Assembly: GCA_964601305.1 (NCBI GenBank)
Contig: CAZRMW010000001.1
Location: 34,376 to 98,375, forward strand
Direction: 5' to 3'
DNA from: an uncultured Candidatus Saccharibacteria bacterium
Lineage (GTDB): Bacteria > Patescibacteriota > Minisyncoccia > JAHISW01 > Tagabacteraceae
Length of the DNA: 64,000 nt
In this document: positions 8,432 to 56,885 of the stretch, one piece after another
Numbering within the stretch: the stretch's first letter is position 1
How the letters are laid out: each line of letters starts with the position of its first letter
Notes under the pieces: generated by a model
What the model saw: only the letters and a program-made list of their open reading frames with translations
Databases searched by the model: none
What the model was told of the DNA's origin: nothing
Translations under genes and position numbers: made by a program

Positions 8432-9184
8432 CTATTTCTCGTACTCTCTACGGGTATTCCACCAAGCACAGTGTTCGCAATCTTTTCCAGAAGCCGGCAT
8501 CTCGCCACTCTCCAAGCATTTTTTGATTTCAAAAAGTTTTGGCTCCACCCAAGAGTCGTTGCCCTCATAAGGAATAAGCACTACATCAAATTCTATTTTT
8601 TTATCAAAAGATTTTTCGTCAGCCCGGCCCGTGCAATATACAAAATAACTAGTATCTGAAACTTTTAGCCCATTTTGCCTAAGAAGCCATTGGTACACTT
8701 CCATTTGTTTTTTGTAGCCCTCGTGCCATTTACCAGCAAGCTCTTTTACAGGCTCCGCCTTCGCGGTTGCTTTGTAGTCTACTACTATATACTCCCCGTT
8801 TTCATTTATCCAAAGGTCGTCTATGGCCCCAGACACAGTAAGCCCCGTAGGTTCATGCTTATACTCTACCCCTTCAAAGTTTTCTCGCCATGTATTTATT
8901 TTTTCGTGCTGTGCTGGTTTTACCTTGAGCTCGTATTCTTTCTGAAGTGGGTGCTGTGTGTTTTCTGCTCTATGAATATCAAACTCTTGTTTAAGCTGAT
9001 AGTCCACTGCACTATTTAAAAGAAAGGCTGGCAACGGCACTCTTTTTGTGCCAAGTTTATTGTCTATATAGAAACAGCGTGGGCACCCACAAAACAAGTC
9101 GATTTTAGATCGACTAAGCCTCCACTTGTCTCCACCGTAATTCCACATGGCACTTCTTTTAGAGTTGTATCCGTAATTTGTCAT
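8432..9184 (-). CDS. PD-(D/E)xK nuclease, Cas4/RecB-like (DUF83-type) with Cys clusters
   Basis: Motifs IDDLWINENGEYIVVDYKAT (D...E-x-K) and QMEVYQWLL (QxxxY), with N-terminal CGCPRC and C-terminal CEHCAW cysteines as in Cas4 Fe-S nucleases; no cas genes or CRISPR array nearby. Confidence 0.6.
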   Translation of the reverse strand: MTNYGYNSKRSAMWNYGGDKWRLSRSKIDLFCGCPRCFYIDNKLGTKRVPLPAFLLNSAVDYQLKQEFDIHRAENTQHPLQKEYELKVKPAQHEKINTWRENFEGVEYKHEPTGLTVSGAIDDLWINENGEYIVVDYKATAKAEPVKELAGKWHEGYKKQMEVYQWLLRQNGLKVSDTSYFVYCTGRADEKSFDKKIEFDVVLIPYEGNDSWVEPKLFEIKKCLESGEMPASGKDCEHCAWWNTRREYEK

Positions 9185-9438: not shown

Positions 9439-10647
9439 ATGAGTTTTCTATCTTCTACAAAATATTTTGACGGGAAAATTTCTCACGGCTTTGTGTCTCT
9501 TTATACAAGCAAAACCATCACAATGATATCTGGGGGTCTTTTGGGATTGTTCCTGCCGATATTTATTTACAACCTTTTAGGACAAAACTTTCAAAAGACG
9601 ATGTTGTTCTATGGAGCTGGCTATTTTTTATATGCAATTTCTTTGTTTTTGTTTGTAAGATTTTTAAATAAATTTGGTTTTAGAAGAGCTCTTCGAGCAA
9701 GCACATTTTTGGGTGCTCTCTATTTCACATTTTTTTATTTTATAGACGAAACTAACTATTCTTATTTTCTTCCTGCTATAATTGTTGTTATAACCTTATA
9801 TAGACTCAGTTATTGGCTCCCTTACCAGGTAGATTTTGCAAAATTTACAAGCAAAAAAAACAGAGGCAAGCAAATAAGCGCAATGAAAGCAACAAGAGAA
9901 GCTATTGGAATTTTTATCCCCCTGATTGCTGGGTTGGTAATAAAAAACTTTGGCTTTGACATACTTTTTATAGTAGCAATAATTCTTTATTTAGTTTCTT
10001 ATATCCCCTACCTTACTATTCCTCGCACAAAAGAAAGATATATGTGGAACTATAAACAAACTTTAGAAAATTTAATTTCTAAAAAAAACAGAAAACAACT
10101 TATAGCCTTTATGTCCGACGGTGCAGAAACTGCCATCTCTGCAATAGTTTGGCCTATTTTTATATTTCAAGTTTTAAAGGGTGATTTCCTAAAACTTGGT
10201 GCTCTTTCAACTTTAATAATTGCTGTTACCATGTTTTTGCAACTTATGATAGGAAAAAAATTAGACAAAACTGGTCACAAAAATAAAATACTAAAATTTG
10301 GGAGTATGTTTTCCTCTATAAGTTGGGTCATAAAAATATTTGTAGTTTCGGCTTTTCATGTTTTTGTTATTGGCGCATTTCACAACATAATGAGAATATT
10401 TACGCGAATTCCTTTCGATTCTCTTACATACGAAATAGCGGCCGACGAAGGCCACTATGTAGATGAGTTTACTGTACTTCACGAAATAGCAGTATCTACA
10501 GGCAGAGTGCTAATGGTAATTTTTGCAATAATTATCTCCTTATTTTACCCAATTCAATATGTGTTTATCATTGCTGCAGTTTCAGCTATTTTCCTAAATC
10601 TTCTTCGCCCTCATCTTGCTGATGAGTCTTTAAGTACTTCTGTCTAA
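9439..10647 (+). CDS. polytopic membrane transporter (MFS-like)
   Basis: 402 aa, about 10-12 TM helices; 3' end overlaps the convergent 10586..13027 gene. Confidence 0.5.
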   Translation: MSFLSSTKYFDGKISHGFVSLYTSKTITMISGGLLGLFLPIFIYNLLGQNFQKTMLFYGAGYFLYAISLFLFVRFLNKFGFRRALRASTFLGALYFTFFYFIDETNYSYFLPAIIVVITLYRLSYWLPYQVDFAKFTSKKNRGKQISAMKATREAIGIFIPLIAGLVIKNFGFDILFIVAIILYLVSYIPYLTIPRTKERYMWNYKQTLENLISKKNRKQLIAFMSDGAETAISAIVWPIFIFQVLKGDFLKLGALSTLIIAVTMFLQLMIGKKLDKTGHKNKILKFGSMFSSISWVIKIFVVSAFHVFVIGAFHNIMRIFTRIPFDSLTYEIAADEGHYVDEFTVLHEIAVSTGRVLMVIFAIIISLFYPIQYVFIIAAVSAIFLNLLRPHLADESLSTSV

Positions 10648-13027
10648 TCTCTGACTCCACTTCGCTGGCTGGTCTACCATATTTTATAGCTGACAATTCT
10701 TTCACCTTGCTTGCCACCTGAGAACTAGTTTCTTCAGGAGGAATTGTTTGTATATTAAAAGGCTTTGTAGATTCGCCACCAACTAAAAGTTTTAGATACG
10801 CATTGTAGTTTGGTATGTTTGTTAAGTCTTCTCTTTCAAAAACCGGCTCAAACATTTTTGCTAAAAATTCTGCATCTTCTTCTCCCACTCTAAATACAGC
10901 AAGTGATCCAACGTTTCCAAAAACAGCTTTTTTTATTTCTTCGTCTAGCTGGCCAATAAATTGGTGTGCAATAGTAAGATCTAGTCGATACTTTCTTGCT
11001 TCAGACAAAATCATAGCAATAGAGTTTGTGGTAATATTTTGAAATTCGTCTATGTAGAAGTAAAAATCTTTTCTTGTGCTTTCTGGTATATCTACGCGCG
11101 ACATTGCTGCCATAAAAATTTTGCCCACAAGAAGCATACCCAAAAGATTTGCGTTTAATTCTCCAAGTCGGCCTTTGGATAGGTTTATTAGTAAAATTTT
11201 ACCATCATCCATTATTTCTCTGAAGTTGAGCGATGTGTTTTCTTGCGCTAAAATTGGCCTCATTATTTCGTTGCTTAAAAATGTATCGAATTTGCTGGTG
11301 ATATAAGGAACAATATTTGCAAGAGCTGCTTCTCCGCCAGCTTTCCCCGCAGTTTCTTTCCAAAAATTATTTACTACCGGATTGTTACTTTTTGAAAGTT
11401 TTAGTTCACGATAATCTTCATCTGTTAACACTCTGGAAATTTCTAAAAGTGTGTTACCGCTCTCTGGATCTTCCATCACAAGGAGTGTGGCGTTTCTAAA
11501 ATATTGCTCAAACATAGGGCCACCCGCCACAGACATATCGTAAAGTTTATCAAAAATCTCTAAAAGTTCGTTTACTATAAAAGTTTTCTGCTCCGGATTC
11601 TTTTTGTCGTACTCAAGCATATTTAATCCAAAAGGTCTTCTTGTGTCTGCAGGATTGAAATATACTACATCTTCCCATCTTTCTTCAGGAATTTGACCTA
11701 AAACATCTTCGAGGTCAGAACCGTGTGGATCTATAAAACACACGCCATGCCCTGCTTTTATATCTTGAAGAACCATATTTTTAAGAAGGGCAGACTTACC
11801 AGTACCAGTCTGACCAATTGTATAAAAATGCCTTCGCCTATCGTCTTCTGAAAAATGTATGTCTGTTTCTTTTCCTCTGAAGAAATTTTTTCCAAGTACA
11901 ACGCCTTTTTGTTGTAAACTTACAGGAGGCTCTGTATTTCTTGTTTTTGAAAGTTTTACTTTTGGAGCAGAAAGACCATAGGAAGGAAAATGAAAAATAC
12001 TTGTAAGCTCTTCTGTGTTTAAATGAAGAGATTCTTTTTCATTAAACAATCTAAAAGAAAAATTATGGAAAAAGTTTTTTAACACAGATCCCTTTAAATC
12101 GTTTGCAACAAAAGCATTGCCCATTACAGAAGAATATTGAGAAAAAGCGCTTTTAACTTGGTTTAAAATACTTTGTGATCGTTCTGTAGTTTGTGAAGAA
12201 ACAACTAGCCGAATATTTGCCCTCATTATTGGCTTCGCAATTTTTTTATTTAAAAAACTTAAAATTTCTGTATTTGCTTCTCTTTCCATAGAAGAAAGCG
12301 CAGACACACCATCTTTGTTTGAATGAATAGTACCCCCCGTGGCCACTTTAAGAAACGAATGTTGCAAACTTTCCCCACCTTTTAAAGCAGATTTTACTGG
12401 CTCTCCAGAATTAATGAGGTTAATAGATTTTTGTACACTTTTTTTAAAATTTGTTTCTTGGGGATCTATTATTATTTGAAGAGAGGCTCCTTCTTTATCT
12501 CTTTCTAAATCAGAAAAAGTGTTCACTACCACTTCAAGTGGGCTTGTTTCTAATTCTTCGTATGTTTTTATTGGCAACACATCGCTAGTTTTTAGTTTTA
12601 GTGTGGCCCCTGCGTTTGGCGCGCCATATTTAAAAATATTATAATCCGCTTTTTCTTCGCGAATTTCTGCTGTTGGGAAAACGGCACGGACTTGATTTTG
12701 AAAAACAGAAATTTTGTCTCTCGGTACAGCCACATAAAAATTAATCTCATTTTCTGTAGACGGAGAAACTATTTCTAGAGAAAAATAAGAACCTAAGTTT
12801 AGCATTCCCATATAAAACTGTTCCATTTTAGAAACAAGCTCTTTGAAAGGCTTTTCTTCTTTTTGGCTTCTTGGGAAACTGACTTCGTACAAAGAAAGAT
12901 CGAGCGCATGCCTTAGATCAGAATCTCTTTTTTGCCTCAAAACAAAAAACAAAAGAAGTCCTATTAAAATAAAAAATAGAGGAAGTATAACAAAAGGACT
13001 AAACAAAAGATCTAATGATTTTGACAT
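10586..13027 (-). CDS. VirD4/TraG/TraD-like type IV coupling-protein-family ATPase with N-terminal TM anchor and about 400-aa unknown N-domain
   Basis: Walker A IGQTGTGKS followed by CFIDPHGSD; C-terminal ARKYRLDLTIAHQFIGQL...VFGNVGSLAVFRV matches the TraG-D_C (TraM-recognition) region; TM helix near the N-terminus. Confidence 0.7.
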   Translation of the reverse strand: MSKSLDLLFSPFVILPLFFILIGLLLFFVLRQKRDSDLRHALDLSLYEVSFPRSQKEEKPFKELVSKMEQFYMGMLNLGSYFSLEIVSPSTENEINFYVAVPRDKISVFQNQVRAVFPTAEIREEKADYNIFKYGAPNAGATLKLKTSDVLPIKTYEELETSPLEVVVNTFSDLERDKEGASLQIIIDPQETNFKKSVQKSINLINSGEPVKSALKGGESLQHSFLKVATGGTIHSNKDGVSALSSMEREANTEILSFLNKKIAKPIMRANIRLVVSSQTTERSQSILNQVKSAFSQYSSVMGNAFVANDLKGSVLKNFFHNFSFRLFNEKESLHLNTEELTSIFHFPSYGLSAPKVKLSKTRNTEPPVSLQQKGVVLGKNFFRGKETDIHFSEDDRRRHFYTIGQTGTGKSALLKNMVLQDIKAGHGVCFIDPHGSDLEDVLGQIPEERWEDVVYFNPADTRRPFGLNMLEYDKKNPEQKTFIVNELLEIFDKLYDMSVAGGPMFEQYFRNATLLVMEDPESGNTLLEISRVLTDEDYRELKLSKSNNPVVNNFWKETAGKAGGEAALANIVPYITSKFDTFLSNEIMRPILAQENTSLNFREIMDDGKILLINLSKGRLGELNANLLGMLLVGKIFMAAMSRVDIPESTRKDFYFYIDEFQNITTNSIAMILSEARKYRLDLTIAHQFIGQLDEEIKKAVFGNVGSLAVFRVGEEDAEFLAKMFEPVFEREDLTNIPNYNAYLKLLVGGESTKPFNIQTIPPEETSSQVASKVKELSAIKYGRPASEVESEIRQKYLKTHQQDEGEEDLGK

Positions 13028-13393
13028 TTACTTTATTTGTTGAGTGGAAAATTCCTGAACCAAGCGATCGTGAAAAGCATCGTCTATTGCAGGATCTAAG
13101 TTCTTAGAAACTTTTGCAGCATTTACGATTCCCTTCTGTTCTGCAAACTTAAAAAGATTATCTACCGCTTTTTGCACTTCTCCTTGAGCAGGGTCTATTA
13201 TCGCCTTTTCTACACTTTTCAAATCTTCCCCCGAAATCAAATTTTCTTTAGAATAAATTTGTTCTGGCTTAAGCTGAACGTGCTCGCCTACTATTTCTCG
13301 AGTCTGCTCTGGACTGCTTTCAACTTTTTCCCTAAGACCTTGCCACTCCTGTTGCGGACTAATTTTCTGTTCAAATTGTTGTTCATTTGTCAT
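13028..13393 (-). CDS. hypothetical acidic protein, translationally coupled to the VirD4-like ATPase gene
   Basis: 121-aa ORF; its stop abuts the start of 10586..13027 (13028/13027). Confidence 0.45.
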   Translation of the reverse strand: MTNEQQFEQKISPQQEWQGLREKVESSPEQTREIVGEHVQLKPEQIYSKENLISGEDLKSVEKAIIDPAQGEVQKAVDNLFKFAEQKGIVNAAKVSKNLDPAIDDAFHDRLVQEFSTQQIK

Positions 13394-13440
13394 AAGCTTA
13401 TTATATCACAAATTCAAACACTTTTGGTATATCTACACCA

Positions 13441-13467
13441 AAATAACGGAGTTGAACTCCGTTATTT
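13441..13467. terminator. palindromic hairpin AAATAACGGAGTTGAACTCCGTTATTT (repeated at 17431..17458)
   Basis: Perfect inverted repeat plus T-run downstream of the 13477..14673 gene; second copy 4 kb away. Confidence 0.5.
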
Positions 13468-13476
13468 TCTGTTATT

Positions 13477-14673
13477 TTATTTTCTACCTCTCTTAAACGC
13501 TTTTATAAAGACATCTTCTATTATATCAAAATCTTCTATCCCCAAAGAAACTCTCAAGAGATACGGATCTATTCCTATTCTCTTCTTTTTTATTTCAGAG
13601 ACTTGCGCGTGTGTCATGTAAAAAGGGTTACAAAACATAGTATCTGTGCACCCTAAGCTTACAGCAAAAGCAATACCGCTTTTTATCAAAGAATTTACAA
13701 ATTTTTCCAAGTCTACACTTTTATTGTTTAAAACAAAAGATACGACACCCCCAAAAGCAAAATCTTCAGAAACATGCAGGCTTCCAACACAAGAAGGATT
13801 CCTTACTCTCAAAGCTTCAACCATAGAATACTCAGCCTCTTCTGAAAAAGGTAGGTTTAATCTTCCTGGATAAAAAACTTTTTCTACTTCTCCTGTTTTT
13901 ACTTTTTTTTCTATAAAATTTGCAAACAAAAGTGCGTTTATACCATGCCTTTCCATTCGTAAATTAAAAGTCTCAAGCCCTCTCATTAATAAAGTGCAGT
14001 AATCTGGAGACAAAATTCCACCCAAAGCAGTTCTCATTTCTCTTATTTTTTCGAAATACCCCTCATCATTTGTAGCAACAATCCCAGCCAACAAATCACC
14101 ATGCCCGTTTAAATACTTTGACGCACTTTCAACAACAATATCTATGCCGTGTAATATCGGTATCTGAAAGAAAGGTGTAGCAAAAGTATTGTCTATTATA
14201 CTTATGCTCCCTGTTTTTTTTGACACTTTGGCAATACCAGATAAATTAACCATCTCAAGGCAAGGATTATTTGGACTTTCTGTAAAAACAAATTTAGGAG
14301 TATTTGTATGAATTGCCCTTTCAAATTCTTTCACACCTCGTCTTAAAACTGTTGTTCCAAGGTTGGGTAAATTTTCTGAAAAGAATTTATCTGAACCACC
14401 ATACAAAACATCTCCTACCAAACAAACATCTCCAGTTCTAGAAAAAGCTAAAATCGTAGATATAATAGCAGCCATACCTGAAGAAAAAACCAAAGCATAT
14501 TTTGCACCCTCAAGTTCTGCTATCTTTTTCTCTGCTTCAACAAAACTTGGGTTATTCACTCTTGTGTAGGCAAATCCCTCTTTTTCCCCAAAAAAAACAT
14601 CTCTAGCTTCTTTTAAAGAACTAAAGCCAAAAGCACTTGTTCTAGAAATATCGGGCCTGTGATTTTTATTCAT
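13477..14673 (-). CDS. Cys/Met-metabolism PLP-dependent enzyme (cystathionine gamma-synthase / methionine gamma-lyase family)
   Basis: 398 aa; VVESASKYLNGHGDLLAGIV matches the S-x-T/S-K-y-x-x-G-H PLP-lysine motif of this family. Confidence 0.75.
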   Translation of the reverse strand: MNKNHRPDISRTSAFGFSSLKEARDVFFGEKEGFAYTRVNNPSFVEAEKKIAELEGAKYALVFSSGMAAIISTILAFSRTGDVCLVGDVLYGGSDKFFSENLPNLGTTVLRRGVKEFERAIHTNTPKFVFTESPNNPCLEMVNLSGIAKVSKKTGSISIIDNTFATPFFQIPILHGIDIVVESASKYLNGHGDLLAGIVATNDEGYFEKIREMRTALGGILSPDYCTLLMRGLETFNLRMERHGINALLFANFIEKKVKTGEVEKVFYPGRLNLPFSEEAEYSMVEALRVRNPSCVGSLHVSEDFAFGGVVSFVLNNKSVDLEKFVNSLIKSGIAFAVSLGCTDTMFCNPFYMTHAQVSEIKKKRIGIDPYLLRVSLGIEDFDIIEDVFIKAFKRGRK

Positions 14674-14733
14674 CTTTTCCTCCTATTTAGTTATCAAGGT
14701 TTATATAGATATGTTATAATAAATAACATAAAA

Positions 14734-16575
14734 ATGGTAGAGAAAGTATCAAAACAAATCGCAGTTATTATGCTTGGAACAATGTTTCTACTATTGTTTT
14801 TTTCCGCATGGGGAGATTCTGCCACAATGGACGAATTGGCGCACATCCCTGCTGGATACTCATATCTTTCAGAGCAAGACTTTCGTATAAACCCTGAGCA
14901 CCCCCCACTTATAAAAGATTTGTCTGCTATTCCATTAATGTTTCTAAATCTCAATTTTCCTACTGACGATCCATCATGGACAGTGGCTATAAACGGACAG
15001 TGGGACTTGGGGCGAATATTTATTTACGAATCTGGCAACGATGCAGACCAAATAATATTTTGGTCTCGCCTACCAATAATGCTTTTAGCAATCCTGTTTG
15101 GATGGATGTTTTTCAAATGGATACGCGGACTTTATGGCGACAAAGTTGCACTTCTTGCTCTTTTCTTTTTTGTATCTTCACCTACATTTTTAGCGCATTC
15201 TAGATATGTTACCACGGACTTGGCTGCAGCATTTGGATTTTTCATTGGATTAGCCTCGTTTATAAATTTTATCCGGAGAGATACAAAAAAAGATTTGATC
15301 ATTGCTGGAATAGCTTTTGGGGTAGCTCAACTATTAAAATTTTCTTTAGTAATACTTGTTCCTATATATATTATTTTGGGCATACTTTGGGTTTTCCTAA
15401 AAAATTATGAAAATTTTGCTTTTGGCAAATTCATAAAAGAATCTCTTGTAATAGGTGGGAAAATAATTCTTATTGGATTAATTGGGTTAGCAATAGTGTG
15501 GCCTACATATGTATACCACACTTGGAATTATCCCATGGAAAGACAAGTTTCGGATATGTCTCATATCTTAAACACTTTTAGAGTTAAAATAATTTCCAAT
15601 TCTGTAATATGGATGGCGAGCATGCCAAGCCTCCGCGCACTTGGAGAGTACTTATTTGGTATTTTGATGGTTATGCAAAGAGCAGCAGGAGGAAATAATG
15701 TCTTTCTTCTTGGAGAAGTTGCAAACAAAGGTTGGCCAATTTATTTTCCTCTTCTTTATTTACTAAAAGAACATTTAGCTTTAAATATTCTGGCTTTAAT
15801 TTCTATGCTATTTGGCCTAAACAACATCAGAAAAAGCAAGGATAAAAATTTAAAAACTTTTTTTGCATGGCTAAAAGATAATTTTGCTCTCACTACTAGT
15901 TTTATTTTTATTGCTATTTATTGGGCTCAAGCAATTACTAGTCCGCTAAATATTGGAGTACGGCATGTGCTACCAACTTTTCCATTTATTTATTTATTAA
16001 TATCCAGACAAACCATACGCTGGGTGAAAGGTTATTCCTTGGAAACTCCTTCAGATTTTTTGGGCGCACTAAAAAGTTTTTACAGAAACTATTTAAGGCC
16101 ACTTAAAAGGGGTCTTTGTTTGATATTGCTTTTGTCGTGGATGGCTATAGCTACGCTCATTACATATCCACACTATCTTTCTTATTACAACGAGCTTGGT
16201 GGTGGCACCTGGAATGGATACAAAATAGCCGTAGACTCAAACTACGATTGGGGGCAAGACTTGAAAAGACTTGTAGCTTTTTTTGAAACTGTTCCTGAAA
16301 GTGAAAAACAAAATGGAATAGCTATAGATTATTTTGGAGGTGGAAATCCCCACTATTATTTTGGAGACCAAGCAAAGATTTGGCACTCAAATACAGGTAG
16401 TCCTATAGACCATGGAATTACTTGGTTTGCAGTATCTGCTACATTTTTTCAAGAATCTCGAGCAGTGCCAGTAAAAGGTTTTATTCGTTTACCCGAAGAT
16501 ACATTTAGCTGGCTAGGAGACAAAAAACCCGTCGCCCGCGCAGGCACTTCTATATTTATATACAAATTTGAGTAA
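14734..16575 (+). CDS. GT-C fold glycosyltransferase, PMT/ArnT-like (GT39/GT83 family)
   Basis: ATMDELAH (DE motif of PMT/ArnT) in the first periplasmic loop, more than 10 TM helices, C-terminal soluble domain. ATG 14734 preferred over GTG 14659 (track start), which overlaps the upstream gene. Confidence 0.65.
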   Translation: MVEKVSKQIAVIMLGTMFLLLFFSAWGDSATMDELAHIPAGYSYLSEQDFRINPEHPPLIKDLSAIPLMFLNLNFPTDDPSWTVAINGQWDLGRIFIYESGNDADQIIFWSRLPIMLLAILFGWMFFKWIRGLYGDKVALLALFFFVSSPTFLAHSRYVTTDLAAAFGFFIGLASFINFIRRDTKKDLIIAGIAFGVAQLLKFSLVILVPIYIILGILWVFLKNYENFAFGKFIKESLVIGGKIILIGLIGLAIVWPTYVYHTWNYPMERQVSDMSHILNTFRVKIISNSVIWMASMPSLRALGEYLFGILMVMQRAAGGNNVFLLGEVANKGWPIYFPLLYLLKEHLALNILALISMLFGLNNIRKSKDKNLKTFFAWLKDNFALTTSFIFIAIYWAQAITSPLNIGVRHVLPTFPFIYLLISRQTIRWVKGYSLETPSDFLGALKSFYRNYLRPLKRGLCLILLLSWMAIATLITYPHYLSYYNELGGGTWNGYKIAVDSNYDWGQDLKRLVAFFETVPESEKQNGIAIDYFGGGNPHYYFGDQAKIWHSNTGSPIDHGITWFAVSATFFQESRAVPVKGFIRLPEDTFSWLGDKKPVARAGTSIFIYKFE

Positions 16576-29629: not shown

Positions 29630-29660
29630 AAAGCCCTTGCCTTATTGGCAAAGGGTTTTT
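29629..29660. terminator. terminator hairpin AAGCCCTTGCC-ttatt-GGCAAAGGG plus T-run
   Basis: GC stem plus TTTTT immediately after the stop of 29312..29629. Confidence 0.5.
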
Positions 29661-29674
29661 ATTATACAAATACA

Positions 29675-31750
29675 ATGAAATATTATATTTTTACATTTGG
29701 GTGTGGCGCCAACCACGCTGACAGTGAAAGAATCGCCAGAAAATTGAAAGCCCTCGGCCACAAAAAAGCAGTTTCTTCCAAAGAGGCTAGTTTAATAGTG
29801 CTCAATGCCTGCTCTGTTAGAAAATCTGCTATAGATAGAGTTTATGGCAAAGTAAAAAATCTAAAAAACAAGCAAATTATACTAGCAGGCTGTCTCCTTG
29901 ATTCAGATAGAAAAAAATTAGAAAAAAAAGTAAAAGCTATTTGGCATCCAGACGAATATTTCGATTTATCCCCCATAAACGAAACTTCTTTTCGTGCGCT
30001 TATACCAATCACAAAAGGTTGTAATAATTTTTGTTCGTACTGTGCTGTGCCCTACACACGAGGAAAAGAAAAATCTCGCCCAGCAAAAGACATAATCAAT
30101 GAAATTAAAGAATTAATAAAAAATAATTATAAAGAAATATGGCTGTTGGGACAAAATGTAAATAGCTATAAATCTGGGAAAACAAATTTTCCAAAACTTC
30201 TTCAGAAAATAAACAAGATTGAAGGTAATTTTTGGATAAAATTTACTTCCCCTCACCCAAAGGATTTCTCCAACGAATTAATACAAACTATAAAAAAATG
30301 TGAAAAGGTTACCAACTACATAAACCTGCCTGTTCAATCTGGGGACAATGAAATTTTGAAGAAAATGAATCGAAAATATACACGCCAGCACTACATTAAG
30401 CTTGTAAACAAAATTAAAAAAGCTATTCCAGATGTAGCAATTTCTACAGATACTATCGTAGGATTCCCTGGAGAAACACGCACTCAATTTAAAAACACTC
30501 TAGATTTGTACAAAAAAATTAAATTCGATATGGCTTTTATTTCACAATACTCCCCTCGCACAGGCACCGTATCCGCACGAACTATGAAAGACAACATAAA
30601 ACACATAAAAAAAGAAAAGCGCGACAAAGAGCTTACAAAAGTATTAGCCAAATATTCGCTCGAGAAAAATAAAAAATTAGTTGGGCAAACTATAAAAGTT
30701 TTAATTGACTCACAAAAAGACACTAATTTTTTTGGCCGCACAGAAGGCAACAAAATAGTTAAAATAAATAAAACTGATTCTATAAGTATAGGAAAATTTG
30801 TAGATATAAAAATAACAAAAGCTACCTCTTGGAAGCTGGAGGGAGAAATCGCTCCTACAAAAATTATAGTAGTTTTGGGCCCCACAAGCTCTGGAAAAAG
30901 CGACTTAGCTGTAGATATAGCTCTTCAATTCCCTTCTGAAATTATTTCTGCAGATTCTAGGCAAGTTTATAAACACATACCTATCGGTACAGGGGCTATA
31001 ACCAAAAAAGAAATGAAGGGTATTTCCCATCATTTGCTAGGTTTTGTAAATCCCAAAAAAACATATACTGCAATAGATTTTAAAAAAGATGCAGAAAAAG
31101 CTATAAAAGAAATTCTAAACAAAAACAAAATACCAATAATATGTGGTGGCACAGGGTTTTATATACAAACACTTTTAAGTGGCAATAATTTACCAAAAGT
31201 AAAACCAAACTGGCCTCTTAGAAAAAAAATGGAGAAAAAAACAGCAGGCCAACTTTTTAAACAACTTCAAAAGCTCGACCCCAAACGCGCTAAAAACATA
31301 GATTCAAAAAACAAGCGGCGTTTAATTCGTGCTATCGAGATTGCTATCAAATTAACGAAGTCGGACTTCGATAGTTCACTACCGAAATCCGACTTCAATA
31401 GTTGGGATGTGCTGTATTTAGGTATAGAAAGAAAAAGTGGTAATTTAGAAAAACTTATCAGAAAAAGAATTTTGGGACTTATAAAAAGAGGGCTTTTGGC
31501 AGAAGTAAAAAATTTAAGAAAGAAAAAAGTCTCCTGGAAAAGAATAGACGAACTAGGTTTTGAGTATAAATACCCAGCTCAATATATCCGCGAAGAAATA
31601 AATAAAGAAGAAATGGTAGAAAAAATACTTACAGGAAATAATAAGTACGCAAAAAGACAGATGACTTGGTTTTTAAAATATACCCCAAAGACAATTTGGG
31701 TAAAAAATTCTAAGGAAGCTATGAAATTATCTAAAAAATTTTTAGACTAA
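29675..31750 (+). CDS. miaB-miaA: fusion protein: MiaB-like radical-SAM methylthiotransferase (MTTase-N, radical SAM, TRAM) fused to MiaA tRNA dimethylallyltransferase
   Basis: Start MKYYIFTFGCGANHADSE (MTTase N-terminus Cys), LNACSVR, AGC, CNNFCSYCAVP radical SAM, TRAM region; then IIVVLGPTSSGKSDLAVDIAL (P-loop), ISADSRQVYKHIPIGT, HHLLGF = MiaA. Single continuous 692-aa ORF. Confidence 0.8.
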   Translation: MKYYIFTFGCGANHADSERIARKLKALGHKKAVSSKEASLIVLNACSVRKSAIDRVYGKVKNLKNKQIILAGCLLDSDRKKLEKKVKAIWHPDEYFDLSPINETSFRALIPITKGCNNFCSYCAVPYTRGKEKSRPAKDIINEIKELIKNNYKEIWLLGQNVNSYKSGKTNFPKLLQKINKIEGNFWIKFTSPHPKDFSNELIQTIKKCEKVTNYINLPVQSGDNEILKKMNRKYTRQHYIKLVNKIKKAIPDVAISTDTIVGFPGETRTQFKNTLDLYKKIKFDMAFISQYSPRTGTVSARTMKDNIKHIKKEKRDKELTKVLAKYSLEKNKKLVGQTIKVLIDSQKDTNFFGRTEGNKIVKINKTDSISIGKFVDIKITKATSWKLEGEIAPTKIIVVLGPTSSGKSDLAVDIALQFPSEIISADSRQVYKHIPIGTGAITKKEMKGISHHLLGFVNPKKTYTAIDFKKDAEKAIKEILNKNKIPIICGGTGFYIQTLLSGNNLPKVKPNWPLRKKMEKKTAGQLFKQLQKLDPKRAKNIDSKNKRRLIRAIEIAIKLTKSDFDSSLPKSDFNSWDVLYLGIERKSGNLEKLIRKRILGLIKRGLLAEVKNLRKKKVSWKRIDELGFEYKYPAQYIREEINKEEMVEKILTGNNKYAKRQMTWFLKYTPKTIWVKNSKEAMKLSKKFLD

Positions 31751-42847: not shown

Positions 42848-44608
42848 TTATTTGAGCTTCTCTATCTCTTTGCTAAGATATTTCTTCATTTTTACTACAG
42901 TGCTTTTCAACCCTTTTAGAGAATTATTTATCATTTCTTTGTCTTCAGATTTAAATTTTTGTTTTTTCAAACTCTTTTCTAAATCTTCCATATCGTTTTC
43001 CATAAGTTTGCTCAGTTTTTTTATATCTCTTCCAACAATTATTTTATATGCGCTCCTTTTCTCTTTTTCAGAAACATAATACCAAGCCACAAAAGATCCA
43101 ACAGAAGAAAAAATTAAAACTAAAATAATAACTATCTCAAACCACCCGAAATCCACAACACCCAAAGAAATTATTGTTTTTGCTGTAATTTTAAAAGATA
43201 TTGGCTCTGTATTGTAGCTTACGCCACCCCTATCGTCTCTTGATGAAATCAAAAACTTATATTCTCCCCCCTGAAACGGCTCTTCTATTACAACTTCCCA
43301 ATTGCCAACCTTATTGCTCTCTGAAAAAGTAGTAAAAATTATCTGATCATCTTTTAAAATCTTTACATCCACAAACCCATTTGGAACAGCCTTTCCAGAA
43401 GCAAACAAAAACTCGCCTCCAGAAACTTTTTTTGTTATAAAATCTACTACCGGTTTTTCAAGAGGAATTATTTCAAACTTAATGTCATCTTCCACGCTGT
43501 TTCCTGCCTTATCGAAAACACGCACCACTAAATCGTGCTCCCCTGGAGATTGAGGAGGCAACAACAAAAACTCATCTGTAGATTCTACCGCCTCTTTTCC
43601 ATCAATAAAAATCAAAGCGTGAGAATAACCAGAAAGACTATCTTGTGTTTTAAACTCTATCTCGGGGACAGGATTGTCGCTAACAAACGAACTGATTTGC
43701 GTTTCAAAAGGGAGAGGTGAAGTTGTGTCTATGGCAATTTTATAATGAGTCACCTCTCCCCAACCTTTATTGTTTTTAAATTGTACATGTACATAGTGTA
43801 TTCCTTCACTCAAAACTCCTATATTTTTACCTGTAAAAAGTTCTTCTTCGGAAGTGGTAGGCTCTGACGACACTTTTGCGTTTACCTCTACTGCAACTTT
43901 TATTACATCTTCAGGAACATCCCACAAAACTATTGTATTTCCTTGGTGGTTGTACCATTTCCCATGCTCAGGATAAAAAGGAACTCTAACAACCGGAGCC
44001 TCGGGCGCATCTACTGCTTTTACAGCTACTCGTTCAACTCTTTGCGGAAGCTCTTCTTTTTCAACCTCTTGCGGAACAAAAGGGATTTCAGCTTCTATAG
44101 TTTTTGCGCCAATTTTTATTTTTGTGCCTGCCATTTCAGAAAGCACATTTGTGCCTTTTCCATCGTTTGCAGTAACCACAGATTCATCAAAAGAAATGTT
44201 TGCAACACCAGTACCAACAACCTTGAAGTTTATTCTAACAATTTGAAGTGCCCCACCAGAGACACCCTTTGCAGTGCCCCCGATAAAACTTACTCGCCCC
44301 AGCTCATTGTTTATTTCTGGTTCGTCTATCCAAAAATTAAAAACAGAACTATTTTTATCTGTACTAACAACCTCTAAAATATTGTTCGAAAAATTTACTG
44401 TAGACTGAACCGCATTTATAAAAACATCGCTTGTATCTACTTTTACATCTACAGAAAATTCCTGTCCACGCGCAAAAGTCTTCCCTTCTGGAAGCAAATA
44501 AAGAGTAGATGCATTAGCAGAAGGCGCAAACGCCAGAATAAAGAATAAAGAATAAAGAATAAAGTTGCTTAACTTTAAAATATTCATAATTCGTGATTCA
44601 TAATTCAT
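42848..44608 (-). CDS. type-I membrane-anchored surface protein with N-terminal cohesin-like domain and Ig-like middle region
   Basis: Signal peptide; GQEFSVDVKVDTSDVFINAVQSTVNFSNNILEVVS...VRINFKVVGTGVANISF resembles cohesin; C-terminal TM plus basic tail; N-terminus paralogous to 58607..59602. Confidence 0.55.
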   Translation of the reverse strand: MNYESRIMNILKLSNFILYSLFFILAFAPSANASTLYLLPEGKTFARGQEFSVDVKVDTSDVFINAVQSTVNFSNNILEVVSTDKNSSVFNFWIDEPEINNELGRVSFIGGTAKGVSGGALQIVRINFKVVGTGVANISFDESVVTANDGKGTNVLSEMAGTKIKIGAKTIEAEIPFVPQEVEKEELPQRVERVAVKAVDAPEAPVVRVPFYPEHGKWYNHQGNTIVLWDVPEDVIKVAVEVNAKVSSEPTTSEEELFTGKNIGVLSEGIHYVHVQFKNNKGWGEVTHYKIAIDTTSPLPFETQISSFVSDNPVPEIEFKTQDSLSGYSHALIFIDGKEAVESTDEFLLLPPQSPGEHDLVVRVFDKAGNSVEDDIKFEIIPLEKPVVDFITKKVSGGEFLFASGKAVPNGFVDVKILKDDQIIFTTFSESNKVGNWEVVIEEPFQGGEYKFLISSRDDRGGVSYNTEPISFKITAKTIISLGVVDFGWFEIVIILVLIFSSVGSFVAWYYVSEKEKRSAYKIIVGRDIKKLSKLMENDMEDLEKSLKKQKFKSEDKEMINNSLKGLKSTVVKMKKYLSKEIEKLK

Positions 44609-44626
44609 AATTCTTTTGTATTAAAA

Positions 44627-46099
44627 TTAAATTTTTATGTTTTTTAAAAATATACTAAAATCTATAATATCTATTTTACCATTACCGTCTAAATCTATTT
44701 CTCTTCTAAGCGATTTTTCTTTAGACCCCCATCTAAACAAAAACATACTCCAATCTACAACATTTATAGAATTGTCTTTGTTAAAATCTGCTTTAGGAAA
44801 ACTTAGAGACGACACTCTAAAAGAACGCGGAAAAGAAAAACCACTATCTTTTCCTTCTTTGTTTGTTTGACCAACACGAACTTGAAAATCCCCTGCCCCC
44901 AAATTGCTTGGATTTAAAATAAATTCATAATAACCATTATTATTAGCTTTTGTTTCTTCTTTTATTATATCACCTACCTCTATTTTTACTGCACTTCCTG
45001 CTGTGGAATACCCAAATATTTTTATATTTTTGTCTAGTGTAAAAATACCGTTACCAAAATTTATTGTTGGTGGGAAAAGGATATCTCTAGCTACTAAACT
45101 TTTTTCAGAATTAAAATCTACATTAAATGACATTGACCCAGTTTTTTGTCCCATTTTATCTATAGCCCTAATACTAAAAAAGTATCTGCCTGTAAGAAAA
45201 GCTGTGTAAGATATATTAAACTCTCCGCTACTTGATATATTGTATGTACTAAGTGGTACATTTCTATATACATCGCTAACATCATCTCTAAATAAAACCT
45301 CCACTTCGCTTCTTGGAAAAGCTTTGCCAGAAAAAAGAACTCTTGTGGGAGCCACCCCTCCACCCGTAGGAGTAGATATGCTTGGTTGCCCACCAGATCC
45401 ATTTGTGACTGTAGTAGCCTCACTTGGCACATTAGATAAACTTGAAGTGTTTGGAACTTCGTCGGATACTTTAATAGCAAAGTAATAAGTAGTATTTGCA
45501 CTAAGCCCGGAAACTGTCATACTCTCAGAGCTTCCCGCCACACTTGGTGTGGGCTCTCCTGTGACCTGTGTTGCATTATTAAAATCTGTGTCGTTTGTGA
45601 TGTTTGAGGTTGAATAACGAACATCGTAAGTTGTGGTAGTTCCCGAACCAGCGTCATCGCCTGGTGCTGTCCACGAGAGATTTATGGAAGTTTGGGTAGC
45701 CCCTAAAGCGGTTAAATTATTCACCGCCGACGGTGCTGTAGTATCAGAAGGCGGAGTTGTATATGTAAAACCACCAACTAAAGTTCCCGATTTACCATCT
45801 GATGTACGAGTATAAACAACATCCTGTGCCCCAGCTGTGCCACTAGGAGTTGTCGCTGTCATCTCTGTGCTACTTACAATAATAAGATTTGTTACTGACC
45901 CCCCACCAATAGTCAGCGTTCCTGCTGCAAAACCTGTCCCACCGATAGTTACATCGATCCCTCCCGCCGTTGAACCAGAAGTGGGAGAAATAGAATTAAC
46001 ACTTGGTGCTGGTGCAGCAAAGACACTCCCTGTACTTAAAAAATAGAGGAATAAAAAAACTACTAAAAATTTTAATGAGTGCCCACAAAAATATCTCAT
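44627..46099 (-). CDS. secreted protein with IPT/TIG, fibronectin-III-like and C-terminal dockerin-like domains
   Basis: Signal peptide; GGIDVTIGGTGF (IPT); TSINLSWTAPGDDAGSGTTTTYDVRY (FN3); DFNKDNSINVVDWSMF...DLDGNGKIDIIDFSIF (paired dockerin Ca-binding repeats). Confidence 0.6.
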   Translation of the reverse strand: MRYFCGHSLKFLVVFLFLYFLSTGSVFAAPAPSVNSISPTSGSTAGGIDVTIGGTGFAAGTLTIGGGSVTNLIIVSSTEMTATTPSGTAGAQDVVYTRTSDGKSGTLVGGFTYTTPPSDTTAPSAVNNLTALGATQTSINLSWTAPGDDAGSGTTTTYDVRYSTSNITNDTDFNNATQVTGEPTPSVAGSSESMTVSGLSANTTYYFAIKVSDEVPNTSSLSNVPSEATTVTNGSGGQPSISTPTGGGVAPTRVLFSGKAFPRSEVEVLFRDDVSDVYRNVPLSTYNISSSGEFNISYTAFLTGRYFFSIRAIDKMGQKTGSMSFNVDFNSEKSLVARDILFPPTINFGNGIFTLDKNIKIFGYSTAGSAVKIEVGDIIKEETKANNNGYYEFILNPSNLGAGDFQVRVGQTNKEGKDSGFSFPRSFRVSSLSFPKADFNKDNSINVVDWSMFLFRWGSKEKSLRREIDLDGNGKIDIIDFSIFLKNIKI

Positions 46100-46109: not shown

Positions 46110-46601
46110 TTATTTTTTCCTTTTTTTCTTTTTTGGTTTAACTTCTTTTTTTGTCTCTTCTTCAGATTCTTTTTCTTCTGCCATTCCCTCTATTTTTTCT
46201 GGCGCTCCACTGTTGCCAGGCCTGCTTTCGTCTCCAAAAAAATCTTTTACTTTATCTACGATTTCAGACACAGCATGTTGAGATTTTACTATGTAGTCGT
46301 GTGCGCCAAGCCTCAACCCCTTTTTAATATCATCGTCACTCCCAAGCATTGTGAGAATCATCACAGGAATTTTTTTGGTATTTGGATCTTTTTTAATATC
46401 TTTAAGTACATCAAACCCGTGTAGCTCTGGCAAAATAAGATCAAGTAAAACTAAATCTGGTTTTTTAGATTGCACCAATTTCAGGCCTTTTTCACCATCA
46501 TAAGCTTGATCCACTCCATAATTAGCTTCTTTTAGCTCTTCTTTTATGACTTTTGACAACACTTTGTCGTCTTCTATTAAAACTATTTTTGTTTTCTCCA
46601 T
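46110..46601 (-). CDS. stand-alone response-regulator receiver domain with Lys-rich tail
   Basis: KIVLIEDD...LLDLILP...(phospho-acceptor D)...KIPVMILT...GAHDYIVK: CheY-like REC motifs. Confidence 0.75.
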   Translation of the reverse strand: MEKTKIVLIEDDKVLSKVIKEELKEANYGVDQAYDGEKGLKLVQSKKPDLVLLDLILPELHGFDVLKDIKKDPNTKKIPVMILTMLGSDDDIKKGLRLGAHDYIVKSQHAVSEIVDKVKDFFGDESRPGNSGAPEKIEGMAEEKESEEETKKEVKPKKKKRKK

Positions 46602-46662
46602 TTTATTTATGTCGTTTAACTAATATTATTATTCTAACAAAAAAAATGCTTATTCTCTAGTT

Positions 46663-50449: not shown

Positions 50450-50477
50450 AAAAATACACCTTTATTATACCAAAAAA

Positions 50478-51524: not shown

Positions 51525-51653
51525 AATACCCTTAATTGTATCATTTTAAGCCAAAAAATGAAACAATTAGAAGCTATTCACCTAAAACTCGCCTGGTTTT
51601 AGGTGAATAGCCCTAAATATACCTCAAAATACTATCTAAAAAAACTAAGTGTT

Positions 51654-52145
51654 TTACGTTCTTCTTTTTAAAAGCATTAAATTGGTTATTACTAATCCAG
51701 CTACGAACAAAACAACTCCAAGAAGTACGAAAAAGTATAATTTCAATTGCGCGCTTTTGCCTCCTACTACTTGAAAACTTGCAGAAACCTCCTCCATTAA
51801 GTCTTCATAGTCGCTAATTTTTACATTTATAATATGTAGCCCGCCCTTAGCTATTTCTGGAATTACAATGTAGTCCATAAAAGATGCTTGAGTTTCTATG
51901 GCTTTTAAAAATTTTGCTTGAGCAATAATTTCTCCATCTTTGGTTAGAATTTCATAATTTAATCTTAAATCTTTTCTTCGAGGATTTTCCGGATATTTAA
52001 TTTCTAATTCAAAATAAAATCTCTCACCAGCCACAACATCTGTATATTTTTCTGGCACATGCACCTGAATACTTAAAGCATGCGCAGAAGAAGCCACACC
52101 AAACAAAAACGATACCACTAAAATTGTTTTTATTATTCTACCCAT
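51654..52145 (-). CDS. secreted/membrane-anchored hypothetical protein
   Basis: Signal peptide and C-terminal TM. Confidence 0.4.
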   Translation of the reverse strand: MGRIIKTILVVSFLFGVASSAHALSIQVHVPEKYTDVVAGERFYFELEIKYPENPRRKDLRLNYEILTKDGEIIAQAKFLKAIETQASFMDYIVIPEIAKGGLHIINVKISDYEDLMEEVSASFQVVGGKSAQLKLYFFVLLGVVLFVAGLVITNLMLLKRRT

Positions 52146-52876: not shown

Positions 52877-52885
52877 AATATCGTT

Positions 52886-56884: not shown

Positions 56885-56885
56885 A

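What the first reader, a model, noticed from the sequence alone, without database searches (positions are those of the whole stretch)
10586..13393. VirD4/TraG-like coupling-type ATPase with a large novel N-terminal domain, translationally coupled to a 121-aa acidic protein, without other T4SS genes in the window
The C-terminal 400 aa carry Walker A (GQTGTGKS), CFIDPHG and the TraG-D_C signature. The first roughly 400 aa, after the TM anchor, show no recognisable domain. No VirB4, VirB6 or relaxase is seen within the window. The stop of the upstream small ORF abuts the ATPase start, which suggests a two-gene module. This may be a DNA or protein translocation device relevant to episymbiosis, or a remnant of a conjugative element.
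Basis: partly seen in the sequence, partly recalled or inferred. Interest (0 to 1): 0.5.

Follow-up and report, generated by a model that had tools for sequence, protein, structure and literature searches.

The report
Orphan CPR coupling ATPase, split N-domain
This is an ordinary member of a large family of conjugation-type "coupling" motor ATPases that ultra-small CPR bacteria keep as a chromosomal gene away from any secretion genes; its "novel" front half looks like the front half of the sister motor VirB4, and the small gene in front of it is a detached piece of the same protein.

Summary
ORFs of 121 aa (13028-13393, -) and 813 aa (10586-13027, -) abut (TAA|ATG). The larger has an N-terminal TM helix, Walker A and B motifs and weak but above-cutoff TrwB/TraG-D_C hits. 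No T4SS or relaxase gene lies in the window.

The interpretation needs correcting in three ways.
2. The 121-aa ORF is not an independent partner. It is the detached N-terminal domain of the same protein, fused in a sister clade of about 920-aa, TM-less forms (HMM E 4e-18).
3. It is not a conjugative remnant. More than 5,000 CPR homologues exist, and all 80 species loci examined show housekeeping synteny with no T4SS neighbours.

Full-length homologues on Bacillus and Embleya plasmids lie next to a relaxase, and a separate VirB4 is encoded nearby, so the family is a genuine T4CP subfamily. Orphan T4CP homologues in Patescibacteria were reported in 2025.

Most likely function: a membrane-associated translocation ATPase serving the CPR T4SS encoded elsewhere, or exapted to another role. 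Moderate interest.

The parts
13028..13393 (-). 121-aa acidic ORF. It is the detached N-terminal accessory domain ('DDFH' domain) of the ATPase. The conserved core is roughly aa 75-112 (nt 13058-13171): ..AEQKGIVNAAKVSKNLDPAIDDAFHDRLV..
   Evidence: An HMM built only from the first 140 aa of 49 fused (long-form) homologues hits this ORF at E 4.4e-18 (66 bits). In 80 loci it hits only the fused N-terminus or the ORF immediately upstream. Alignment A3. No PDB or Pfam relative. pI 4.86.
10586..13027 (-). 813-aa ATPase gene: TM helix, DUF8128, then a T4CP-type motor. Its start codon abuts the stop codon of the small ORF.
   Evidence: AF2 model: mean pLDDT 85.1, pTM 0.71.
12935..13000 (-). N-terminal transmembrane helix (aa about 10-31). 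It is followed by RQKRD, which predicts an N-out/C-in topology with the rest of the protein in the cytoplasm.
   Evidence: 19-residue Kyte-Doolittle hydrophobicity 3.18 at aa 12. The model shows a helix at aa 11-42. The helix is present in all split-form homologues and absent from all fused forms.
11912..12925 (-). DUF8128 (PF26449) domain, aa 35-372. An alpha/beta domain with a VirB4-N-terminal-domain-like fold.
10733..11905 (-). VirB4/T4CP-class P-loop motor domain (aa about 375-765). It contains an all-alpha insertion at aa about 478-607 (nt 11207-11596).
11792..11815 (-). Walker A motif GQTGTGKS (aa 405-412).
   Evidence: Invariant in 59 sequences.
11045..11065 (-). Walker B motif FYFYIDE (aa 655-661).
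   Evidence: D660 and E661 are invariant.
10589..10732 (-). C-terminal helical tail with an acidic end (..QQDEGEEDLGK). It overlaps the convergent MFS gene by 62 nt.
   Evidence: The Bacillus plasmid homologues have much longer acidic tails.
13400..13468 (-). Putative operon boundary. A hairpin at 13440-13468 probably terminates the upstream PLP-enzyme gene. An extended -10 element, TGaTATAAT (13408-13400), ends 6 nt before the ATG of the small ORF.
   Evidence: Sequence read directly. The hairpin is listed. The promoter assignment is an inference; the consensus scan did not list it because there is no -35 element.

Best explanation
The locus encodes one protein split into two translationally linked genes. 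It belongs to the DUF8128-type subfamily of type IV coupling proteins (T4CP, VirD4 class).

The 813-aa product is anchored in the cytoplasmic membrane by a single N-terminal helix. Its cytoplasmic part has two domains: a VirB4-N-terminal-domain-like domain (DUF8128) and a TrwB/VirB4-class P-loop motor with an all-alpha insertion. The 121-aa acidic product is the detached N-terminal accessory domain. I infer that it binds the large subunit in trans, because in the sister clade it is covalently fused.

By homology with relaxase-adjacent coupling ATPases of monoderm (MPF-FATA-like) conjugation systems, I infer the following. The protein assembles into a ring-shaped ATPase at the membrane and uses ATP hydrolysis to hand a macromolecular substrate (DNA or protein) to a translocon. 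In CPR bacteria, that translocon is the chromosomal VirB3/VirB4/VirB6/pilin T4SS encoded elsewhere. The VirB4-like N-domain serves as the docking platform.

Shown here: gene structure, domain identities, the split/fusion relationship, family membership, absence of T4SS or relaxase neighbours, and vertical housekeeping-like synteny.

Inferred, not shown: oligomeric state, ATPase activity, the partner machine, the substrate, and the role of the small domain.
For: Architecture and motifs.

DUF8128 has a VirB4-NTD-like fold. The motor belongs to the VirB4/TrwB class.

Split versus fusion:
- 71 short forms (of which about 62 have a TM helix; none has the DDFH motif) against 49 long forms with the fused DDFH domain and no TM helix.
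- HMM E 4.4e-18.
- The two forms separate into two clusters on core-domain identity: 54 long against 19 short plus 1 long.

T4CP membership:
- BLASTP E 7e-49 over aa 56-764 to a Bacillus plasmid protein that lies directly upstream of a Replic_Relax relaxase, followed by TcpD/TcpE and a separate AAA_10 VirB4 (389 bits).
- The same arrangement occurs in Embleya: PrgI, a VirB4-like ATPase, the homologue, a relaxase, then NlpC/P60.
- An N-domain-only HMM hits the two Bacillus proteins at E 5e-19 and 7e-8, and hits no VirB4.

A T4SS exists elsewhere in a related genome: GCA_000991405.1, the source of locus L065, has VirB3, VirB4 and VirB2 at genes 683-688, plus solitary T4CP calls (Table S3 of PMC12102498). 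The Patescibacteria T4SS is MPF-FATA-related (PMC12102498), which matches the plasmid systems where the homologues sit.
Against: - No T4SS or relaxase gene lies within 64 kb here, or within +/-10 kb in any of 80 species loci.
- VirD4-type homologues are found in 2,918 of 3,035 Patescibacteria genomes but VirB4 in only 2,417. Only 148 of 5,713 lie near virB4 (PMC12102498).
- The one genetic test available (Tn-seq in Ca. Southlakia epibionticum) found the T4SS essential but its t4cp homologue dispensable (as cited in PMC12102498). Wang et al. themselves reported no recognisable coupling protein in that T4SS (PMC10633639).
- Relaxases are nearly absent from the phylum (109 in 3,035 genomes), so the canonical T4CP substrate is missing.
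- Fused forms lack any TM helix, so membrane association is not a family-wide property.
- The N-domain/VirB4 relationship rests on predicted structure only. A profile-versus-sequence test was uninformative.
Confidence: 0.5

Rival explanations
1. Exapted, T4SS-independent core translocase. The family descends from a conjugative T4CP, but in CPR it now works on its own or with non-T4SS partners. Candidate roles are nucleic-acid handling (DNA uptake, export, or chromosome/replication-associated translocation) or an envelope process.
For: - 80 of 80 loci lack T4SS neighbours. About 27 fused-form loci sit at the end of the spc ribosomal operon (SecY-Adk-Map), before Ndk. Split-form loci recur next to PMT_2/GT39-like glycosyltransferases, GtrA and DnaX.
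- T4CP homologues are more widespread than VirB4 (96% against 80% of genomes) and average about two per genome.
- The Southlakia t4cp homologue is dispensable while the T4SS is essential. The authors state that exaptation cannot be ruled out.
- The CPR-specific DDFH accessory domain is absent from the plasmid homologues.
Against: - No alternative partner or substrate is indicated by any conserved neighbour. The synteny is with unrelated housekeeping genes and differs between the two clades, so it may be phylogenetic inertia.
- T4CP genes are often unlinked from virB4 in genuine systems.
- MAG incompleteness inflates 'VirB4 absent' calls. Several 'No' genomes still carry VirB3, VirB6 or TrsD.
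Confidence: 0.33
2. A VirB4 paralogue rather than a coupling protein: a second assembly or pilin-dislocase ATPase for the VirB2-like pilus of the CPR T4SS.
For: - The two-domain plan and the length (813 aa) are reminiscent of VirB4 (a statement from general knowledge of VirB4 proteins).
Against: - Sequence models for VirB4 (PF12846, PF03135, PF19044) are not hit, whereas T4CP models are.
- The family profile finds TrwB and DotL in PDB but not VirB4.
- The full-length plasmid homologues occupy the relaxase-adjacent T4CP slot and coexist with a separate canonical VirB4.
- The N-domain HMM does not hit those VirB4s.
- CPR genomes already have a canonical VirB4.
Confidence: 0.1
3. A decaying remnant of an integrated conjugative element.
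For: It is an isolated T4CP-type gene without other transfer genes in 64 kb.
Against: - The ORF is intact and all catalytic motifs are invariant across 59 homologues at 51-69% identity.
- There are more than 5,393 homologous 90%-identity clusters.
- Chromosomal synteny is conserved in 80 species.
- GC content is 0.34-0.35, like the flanks.
- There is no integrase, relaxase or repeat boundary nearby.
- The two architectural forms fall into separate clusters, which fits vertical descent.
Confidence: 0.02

Closest known systems
Relaxase-adjacent coupling ATPases of monoderm Tcp-like/MPF-FATA conjugation loci. Examples: the 'DUF87 domain-containing protein' WP_121549396.1 on B. subtilis plasmid NZ_CP032854.1, and WP_331738717.1 on Embleya plasmid NZ_CP108778.1.
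   Same: Full-length homology (aa 56-764, 26% identity, E 7e-49) that includes both the DUF8128-type N-domain and the motor domain. Similar size (812-913 aa). Same Pfam signature (DUF87 / TrwB_AAD_bind).
   Different: - The plasmid proteins are encoded next to a Replic_Relax relaxase and the T4SS genes. The CPR gene is chromosomal and unlinked from both.
- The plasmid proteins lack the DDFH accessory domain.
- The Bacillus versions have no TM helix and carry an acidic C-terminal tail of about 170 aa.
- None of these plasmid proteins was found to be experimentally characterised in the papers I searched.
TrwB / VirD4 / TraD type IV coupling proteins (PF10412, PF02534, PF12696; PDB 1e9r)
   Different: - From general knowledge, classical T4CPs have a short N-terminal two-helix TM domain placed directly before the motor. 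Here a domain of about 340 aa with a VirB4-NTD-like fold is interposed, and there is one TM helix or none.
- The sequence similarity is weak (23-35 bits).
- There is no relaxase or T4SS linkage.
VirB4 / TrwK (PDB 7o42, 8rtb; CTD 4ag5)
   Different: - No hit to VirB4 sequence models.
- The family coexists with a separate canonical VirB4, both on the plasmids and in CPR genomes.
- The Foldseek TM-score of the N-domain match is only 0.41-0.48, so the domains have diverged considerably.
Orphan 'T4CP homologues' of Patescibacteria reported by Quinonero-Coronel et al. 2025 (PMC12102498)
   Same: Same phylum and same phenomenon: VirD4-type ATPase genes in almost every genome, far from virB4 and without relaxases.
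   Different: That study used short T4CP profiles. In the text I read, it did not describe the domain architecture, the DUF8128 / VirB4-like N-domain or the split/fused accessory domain. I could not verify by accession that this family is among its calls; a gene-position estimate fits the solitary high-coverage 't4cp1' call.

Membership tests
Type IV coupling protein (VirD4/TraG/TraD/TrwB) | TrwB-class P-loop nucleotide-binding domain with intact Walker A and B motifs | tested here: met
   [not shown]
Type IV coupling protein (VirD4/TraG/TraD/TrwB) | All-alpha domain inserted in the motor | tested here: met
   The model shows an all-helical segment at aa about 478-607, between Walker A and Walker B. 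The PF10412 match spans aa 390-708.
Type IV coupling protein (VirD4/TraG/TraD/TrwB) | N-terminal membrane anchor (classically two TM helices) directly preceding the motor | tested here: inconclusive
   The window protein has one TM helix, and a 340-aa domain lies between it and the motor. Fused-form relatives and the Bacillus plasmid homologues have no TM helix.
Type IV coupling protein (VirD4/TraG/TraD/TrwB) | Genetic linkage to a relaxase and/or T4SS (Mpf) genes | tested here: not met
   There is none in the 64-kb window or in the 80 CPR loci. The feature is met for the plasmid homologues.
Type IV coupling protein (VirD4/TraG/TraD/TrwB) | Orthology-grade similarity to proteins that occupy the coupling-protein position of conjugation loci | tested here: met
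   BLASTP E 7e-49 over 87% of the protein's length. The loci concerned contain a relaxase and a separate VirB4.
Type IV coupling protein (VirD4/TraG/TraD/TrwB) | Substrate (relaxosome or effector) recruitment and ATP-dependent transfer | not testable with these tools
   This needs genetics or biochemistry.
VirB4 | VirB4-type N-terminal domain | tested here: met
   [not shown]
VirB4 | Match to VirB4 sequence models (PF12846 AAA_10, PF03135 CagE_TrbE_VirB, PF19044) | tested here: not met
   None was reported at E <= 1. Genuine plasmid VirB4s score 285-389 bits on PF12846.
VirB4 | Encoded with VirB3/PrgI and other Mpf genes, as the single VirB4-class ATPase of the system | tested here: not met
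   There are no such neighbours. Related CPR genomes and the plasmids carry a separate canonical VirB4.
Pfam PF26449 (DUF8128) | Significant match to the family model | tested here: met
   A precomputed hit exists for exactly this protein and for nearly all homologues. The model is absent from the local Pfam copy.
FtsK/SpoIIIE or HerA translocases | Family-specific domains (FtsK alpha/beta/gamma; the HerA HAS barrel) and a model match above cutoff | tested here: not met
   [not shown]

The most novel reading that the evidence does not exclude
DUF8128-type coupling proteins are an evolutionary intermediate between VirB4 and VirD4: a T4CP lineage that kept the VirB4-like N-terminal docking domain. 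In CPR bacteria this lineage has been domesticated into a near-universal, relaxase-independent chromosomal translocase, equipped with a CPR-specific adaptor domain that is either fused or detached. It might, for example, move host-derived nucleic acid or effectors during episymbiosis.
Probability: 0.2. Interest if true: 0.7.

Novelty: new variant of a known kind. Interest (0 to 1): 0.4.

Why it matters
CPR/Patescibacteria depend on hosts, and their T4SS is the only T4SS reported to be essential for the bacterium that carries it. Yet the system lacks relaxases, and its 'coupling protein' is unlinked and unexplained.

Three results here turn a vague 'orphan VirD4-like' annotation into testable hypotheses: what the N-domain docks to, whether the small domain binds in trans, and whether the motor serves the T4SS.
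- The near-universal orphan ATPase is a full-length relative of relaxase-adjacent coupling proteins of Gram-positive plasmids.
- Its uncharacterised DUF8128 domain has a VirB4-like fold.
- A CPR-specific accessory domain is alternately fused to the protein or split from it.

The results also bear on how the two T4SS motor families, VirB4 and VirD4, diverged. For this particular window, however, the gene is a typical family member rather than an oddity.

Tried and rejected
1. A local Pfam/NCBIfam scan of the N-domain and the 121-aa ORF gave nothing significant. The local Pfam copy lacks PF26449.
2. Profile searches of the small domain against PDB and Pfam found no relatives.
3. An hhalign comparison of the family alignment with a single Bacillus VirB4 sequence gave probability 1.8%, even for the motor domains, which are certainly homologous. 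The test is insensitive and I discarded it as evidence either way.
4. I tried to map the L065 orthologue to a Table S3 accession through the listing of cluster members, but the KKP accession was not among the four shown. Only a gene-position estimate was possible.
5. The closed Niyogibacteria genome (GCA_016432485) and OY970290 do not appear in the stored part of the paper's tables.
6. R388 (BR000038) is not in the plasmid collection, so TrwK could not be fetched for a direct comparison.
7. The afdb50 fold library was unavailable.
8. A roughly 255-aa upstream ORF that clustered with the ATPase turned out to be methionine aminopeptidase. The link was an artefact of my naive ORF caller in locus L067.
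9. I first called the Bacillus plasmids 'pLS20-type'. I rejected that after reading that the pLS20 T4CP (gene 48) has two TM helices and is not next to its relaxase. The loci are Tcp-like.
10. A literature search for 'DUF8128' returned no papers.


Full report
**Observation.** The window carries, on the minus strand, a 121-aa ORF (13028-13393) whose TAA stop is followed directly by the ATG of an 813-aa ORF (10586-13027). The large protein has:
- a strongly hydrophobic N-terminal helix (aa about 10-31), followed by RQKRD;
- Walker A GQTGTGKS (aa 405-412), CFIDPHG (aa 430-436) and Walker B FYFYIDE (aa 655-661).

It passes the Pfam gathering cutoffs for TrwB_AAD_bind (26.2 bits against 20.5) and, barely, TraG-D_C (22.6 against 22). 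NCBIfam gives only sub-threshold hits to TraD and VirD4-like models. PDB sequence searches find TrwB (E 2e-4 with the single sequence, 5e-8 with the family profile) and DotL. GC content (0.34-0.35) matches the flanks.

The rest of the window encodes housekeeping, sensor and surface proteins. Examples are SerRS, DprA, TopA, ParB, a MiaB-MiaA fusion, ClpB, HtrA, the NifU/NifS pair, RNase HII, a histidine kinase with its response regulator, solute-binding and dCache proteins, and cohesin/dockerin proteins. There is no VirB4, VirB6, VirB8 or relaxase gene.

**The family.** The protein has at least 5,393 homologous 90%-identity clusters. The best 120 are 50-70% identical over the full length. All but one of those that carry a name are named as Patescibacteria/CPR lineages, typically as 'type IV secretion system DNA-binding domain-containing', 'TraM recognition domain-containing' or 'DUF87' proteins; one, P0013, is labelled Candidatus Marinimicrobia. 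The N-terminal region is not unrecognisable. The precomputed annotation of exactly this protein lists Pfam PF26449 (DUF8128), a recent family missing from the local Pfam copy. A search with the N-domain alone against 1.84 billion cluster representatives gives 1,005 hits at E <= 1e-3. The domain always starts near residue 35 or near residue 145 of proteins of about 800 or about 920 aa, so the architecture is fixed.

**The 121-aa 'partner' is part of the same protein.** Homologues fall into two length classes.
- Short forms (about 786-825 aa, like this one) have the N-terminal TM helix. In the loci examined they are preceded by a separate acidic ORF of 112-156 aa.
- Long forms (880-934 aa) have no hydrophobic segment (19-residue hydrophobicity 1.6 or lower), but carry an extra N-terminal region of about 120 aa.

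That extra region and the small ORFs share a conserved motif..KG[IV]xxA[VI]xVxxxLxxPHxxDxFHDxL... An HMM built only from the first 140 aa of 49 long forms hits the window's small ORF at E 4.4e-18. In 80 loci it hits nothing except the fused N-terminus or the ORF immediately upstream of the ATPase. On identity over the shared DUF8128-plus-motor core, the two forms fall into separate clusters (54 long; 19 short plus 1 long), which fits a single split or fusion event.

This Rosetta-stone relationship is strong evidence that the two window genes act together. It also shows that the TM helix is not a family-wide feature. The small domain has no relative in PDB or Pfam and is absent from the plasmid homologues described below, so it appears to be CPR-specific.

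**What the N-domain is.** AlphaFold2 with a 59-sequence alignment gives confident models: mean pLDDT 85.1 and pTM 0.71 for the full-length protein, and pLDDT 86.3 and pTM 0.84 for aa 35-372. The structure comparisons of the N-domain model give:
- Foldseek, independently: eleven hits at E <= 7e-5, all of them TrwK chains, then a gap to E about 1e-2.

No RecA-like ATPase appears among the N-domain hits, so the match must lie in the VirB4 N-terminal domain. This last step is an inference, because the tool gives no residue ranges.

**Why it is nevertheless a coupling protein.** A tblastn search of 72,556 plasmids finds 354 records. Sixteen of them cover at least 80% of the query, mostly on Bacillus-group plasmids plus one Streptomyces record; an Embleya plasmid hit covers 77%. 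Three contexts were examined:
- In B. subtilis plasmid NZ_CP032854.1 and the 63.6-kb plasmid NZ_OX419581.1, the homologue (886 or 913 aa, annotated 'DUF87 domain-containing protein') lies immediately upstream of a Replic_Relax (PF13814) relaxase. After it come TcpD/TcpE-type membrane proteins, a separate VirB4 of about 850 aa (PF12846, 285-389 bits) and a large, possibly VirB6-like 'conjugal transfer protein'.
- In an Embleya linear plasmid the order is PrgI-family protein, VirB4-like ATPase, the homologue (812 aa), Replic_Relax relaxase, then NlpC/P60 hydrolase.

BLASTP between the window protein and the Bacillus protein gives E 7e-49. It aligns aa 56-764 with aa 31-719, so it runs through both DUF8128 and the motor. 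An HMM of the N-domain alone hits the two Bacillus proteins at E 5e-19 and 7e-8 (computed for a nominal database of 10^6 sequences), but hits none of the VirB4s.

The family is therefore the relaxase-adjacent, T4CP-position ATPase of Tcp-like/MPF-FATA monoderm conjugation systems, and it coexists with a distinct VirB4. These plasmids are not pLS20 itself: the pLS20 T4CP has two TM helices and is not next to its relaxase.

**Context in CPR genomes.** In all 80 species-level loci fetched, all Patescibacteria (by record title for most, by clustering for the rest; two are labelled Bdellovibrionales), the gene has only housekeeping neighbours.
- About 27 fused-form loci place it after L6-L18-S5-L15-SecY-Adk-Map and before Ndk, an MBL-fold RNase-like gene and L20/L35/IF3.
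- About 10 split-form loci, including this window and the closed Niyogibacteria genome CP066691, have divergent PMT_2/GT39-like glycosyltransferases upstream. GtrA and DnaX often lie downstream.

Searches with plasmid relaxase, VirB4, PrgI and TcpE sequences find nothing in the window or in these loci. This pattern, the intact invariant motifs and the native GC content exclude a decaying conjugative remnant.

**What the literature already says.** Quinonero-Coronel et al. 2025 (PMC12102498) report:
- VirB4 in 2,417 of 3,035 Patescibacteria genomes, forming a clade nested in MPF-FATA;
- 5,713 VirD4-type T4CP homologues in 2,918 genomes, of which only 148 lie near virB4;
- only 109 relaxases in the whole dataset;
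- that the t4cp homologue of Ca. Southlakia epibionticum was not essential although the T4SS was, so that 'exaptation cannot be ruled out'.

Their Table S3 shows that the genome behind my locus L065 has VirB3, VirB4 and VirB2 at genes 683-688, and separate T4CP calls at genes 148, 153, 596 and 712. The Paceibacteria genomes whose rows I read each have a solitary high-coverage 't4cp1' call. By gene position the DUF8128 gene fits the call at gene 596, but I could not confirm this by accession.

Wang et al. 2023 (PMC10633639) state that the Southlakia T4SS lacks a recognisable coupling protein and relaxase. No paper in the library mentions DUF8128. In the passages I read of these papers and of the 2025 nomenclature review, none describes a VirB4-like N-domain in T4CPs or the split accessory domain. 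The phenomenon (orphan T4CP-like genes in CPR) is therefore known. The architecture-level reading given here appears not to have been described.

**Mechanism.**

Shown:
- one protein is split into two abutting genes;
- the large subunit has a predicted N-out/C-in single-pass anchor;
- a VirB4-NTD-like domain is followed by a catalytically intact VirB4/TrwB-class motor with an all-alpha insertion;
- the protein is homologous over its full length to relaxase-adjacent coupling ATPases.

Inferred:
- it forms a ring ATPase at the membrane;
- the small acidic domain binds in trans where it is covalently attached in the fused clade;
- DUF8128 acts as a docking platform, by analogy with the VirB4 NTD, which contacts VirB3 and VirB8 in the R388 structure (a statement from general knowledge of PDB 7o41 and 8rtb, not tested here);
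- it delivers DNA or protein to the chromosomal MPF-FATA-like T4SS encoded elsewhere.

I give this model about 0.5. The main rival, at about 0.33, is that the family has been exapted to a T4SS-independent role. That rival is favoured by the complete lack of linkage, the wider distribution than VirB4, the dispensability in Southlakia and the CPR-specific accessory domain. A VirB4-paralogue role gets about 0.1 and a conjugative remnant about 0.02.

**Verdict.** The sequence observation is correct. 'Coupling-type ATPase' is right. 'Novel N-terminal domain', 'separate partner protein' and 'remnant' are not. The gene is a typical member of a very large CPR family whose existence as orphan T4CP homologues was published in 2025. 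Three points add moderate interest: the VirB4-like fold of DUF8128, its presence in Gram-positive plasmid coupling proteins, and the fused or split CPR-specific N-terminal domain with its mutually exclusive TM helix. Together they make the family a variant of a known kind rather than something categorically new.

Noticed in passing
window 29645-31750 (+): A 701-aa ORF combines UPF0004, Radical_SAM and TRAM (MiaB-like methylthiotransferase) with IPPT (MiaA). It appears to be a fusion of two consecutive tRNA-A37 modification enzymes.
   Followed up: no
window 42848-46099 and 58607-63944 (-): Runs of N-terminally anchored surface proteins carry Big_13, fn3/TIG, cohesin (58607-59602), dockerin (44627-46099, 61665-62231), PG_binding and surface-Ig domains. 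This suggests cohesin-dockerin-type assembly on a CPR cell surface.
   Followed up: no
window 46110-58019 (-): A dense sensory block: a response regulator, a HAMP-PAS histidine kinase, a double-PAS protein, a Fic/DOC protein with an HTH (50478-51524), and several membrane-anchored solute-binding or dCache proteins.
   Followed up: no
window 13400-13468 (-): The small ORF is preceded by a 13-bp-stem hairpin (13440-13468) and by an extended -10 element, TGaTATAAT, that ends 6 nt before its ATG. The two-gene unit may be transcribed as a leaderless mRNA. The consensus promoter scan did not list it because there is no -35 element.
   Followed up: partly
window 10586-10647: The 3' end of the ATPase gene overlaps the convergent 402-aa MFS transporter gene (9439-10647, +) by 62 nt.
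   Followed up: no
L018 4405-5895 (+): A 496-aa paralogue with the motor domain only (no DUF8128) lies about 4 kb upstream of the DUF8128-type gene in a Nomurabacteria MAG. It is probably one of the other 'T4CP' calls, of which there are about two per genome in PMC12102498.
   Followed up: partly
short-form loci such as L004, L036, L045, L050, L058, L072; window 14659-16575: A PMT_2 glycosyltransferase (about 620 aa) and a GT39-like glycosyltransferase (about 550 aa) recur upstream in divergent orientation. A GtrA-like gene and dnaX recur downstream of the split-form ATPase. The window has the PMT_2 gene but not the others. Whether this is functional or phylogenetic inertia is unknown.
   Followed up: partly
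[not shown]
   Followed up: no
L088 8911-11571, L089 11749-14490: PLSDB (MOB-suite) types these Bacillus plasmids as 'non-mobilizable'. Yet they encode a Replic_Relax relaxase, a T4CP-position ATPase, TcpD/TcpE, an AAA_10 VirB4 and a possible VirB6-like protein, so they are probably conjugative plasmids that the typing missed. Of the 354 plasmid records with a match, 290 are typed non-mobilizable.
   Followed up: partly
window 8432-9184 (-): A 250-aa Cys-rich PD-(D/E)XK (PF12705) nuclease-like protein lies two genes downstream of the ATPase, after the MFS transporter gene and a small PspC-domain gene.
   Followed up: no
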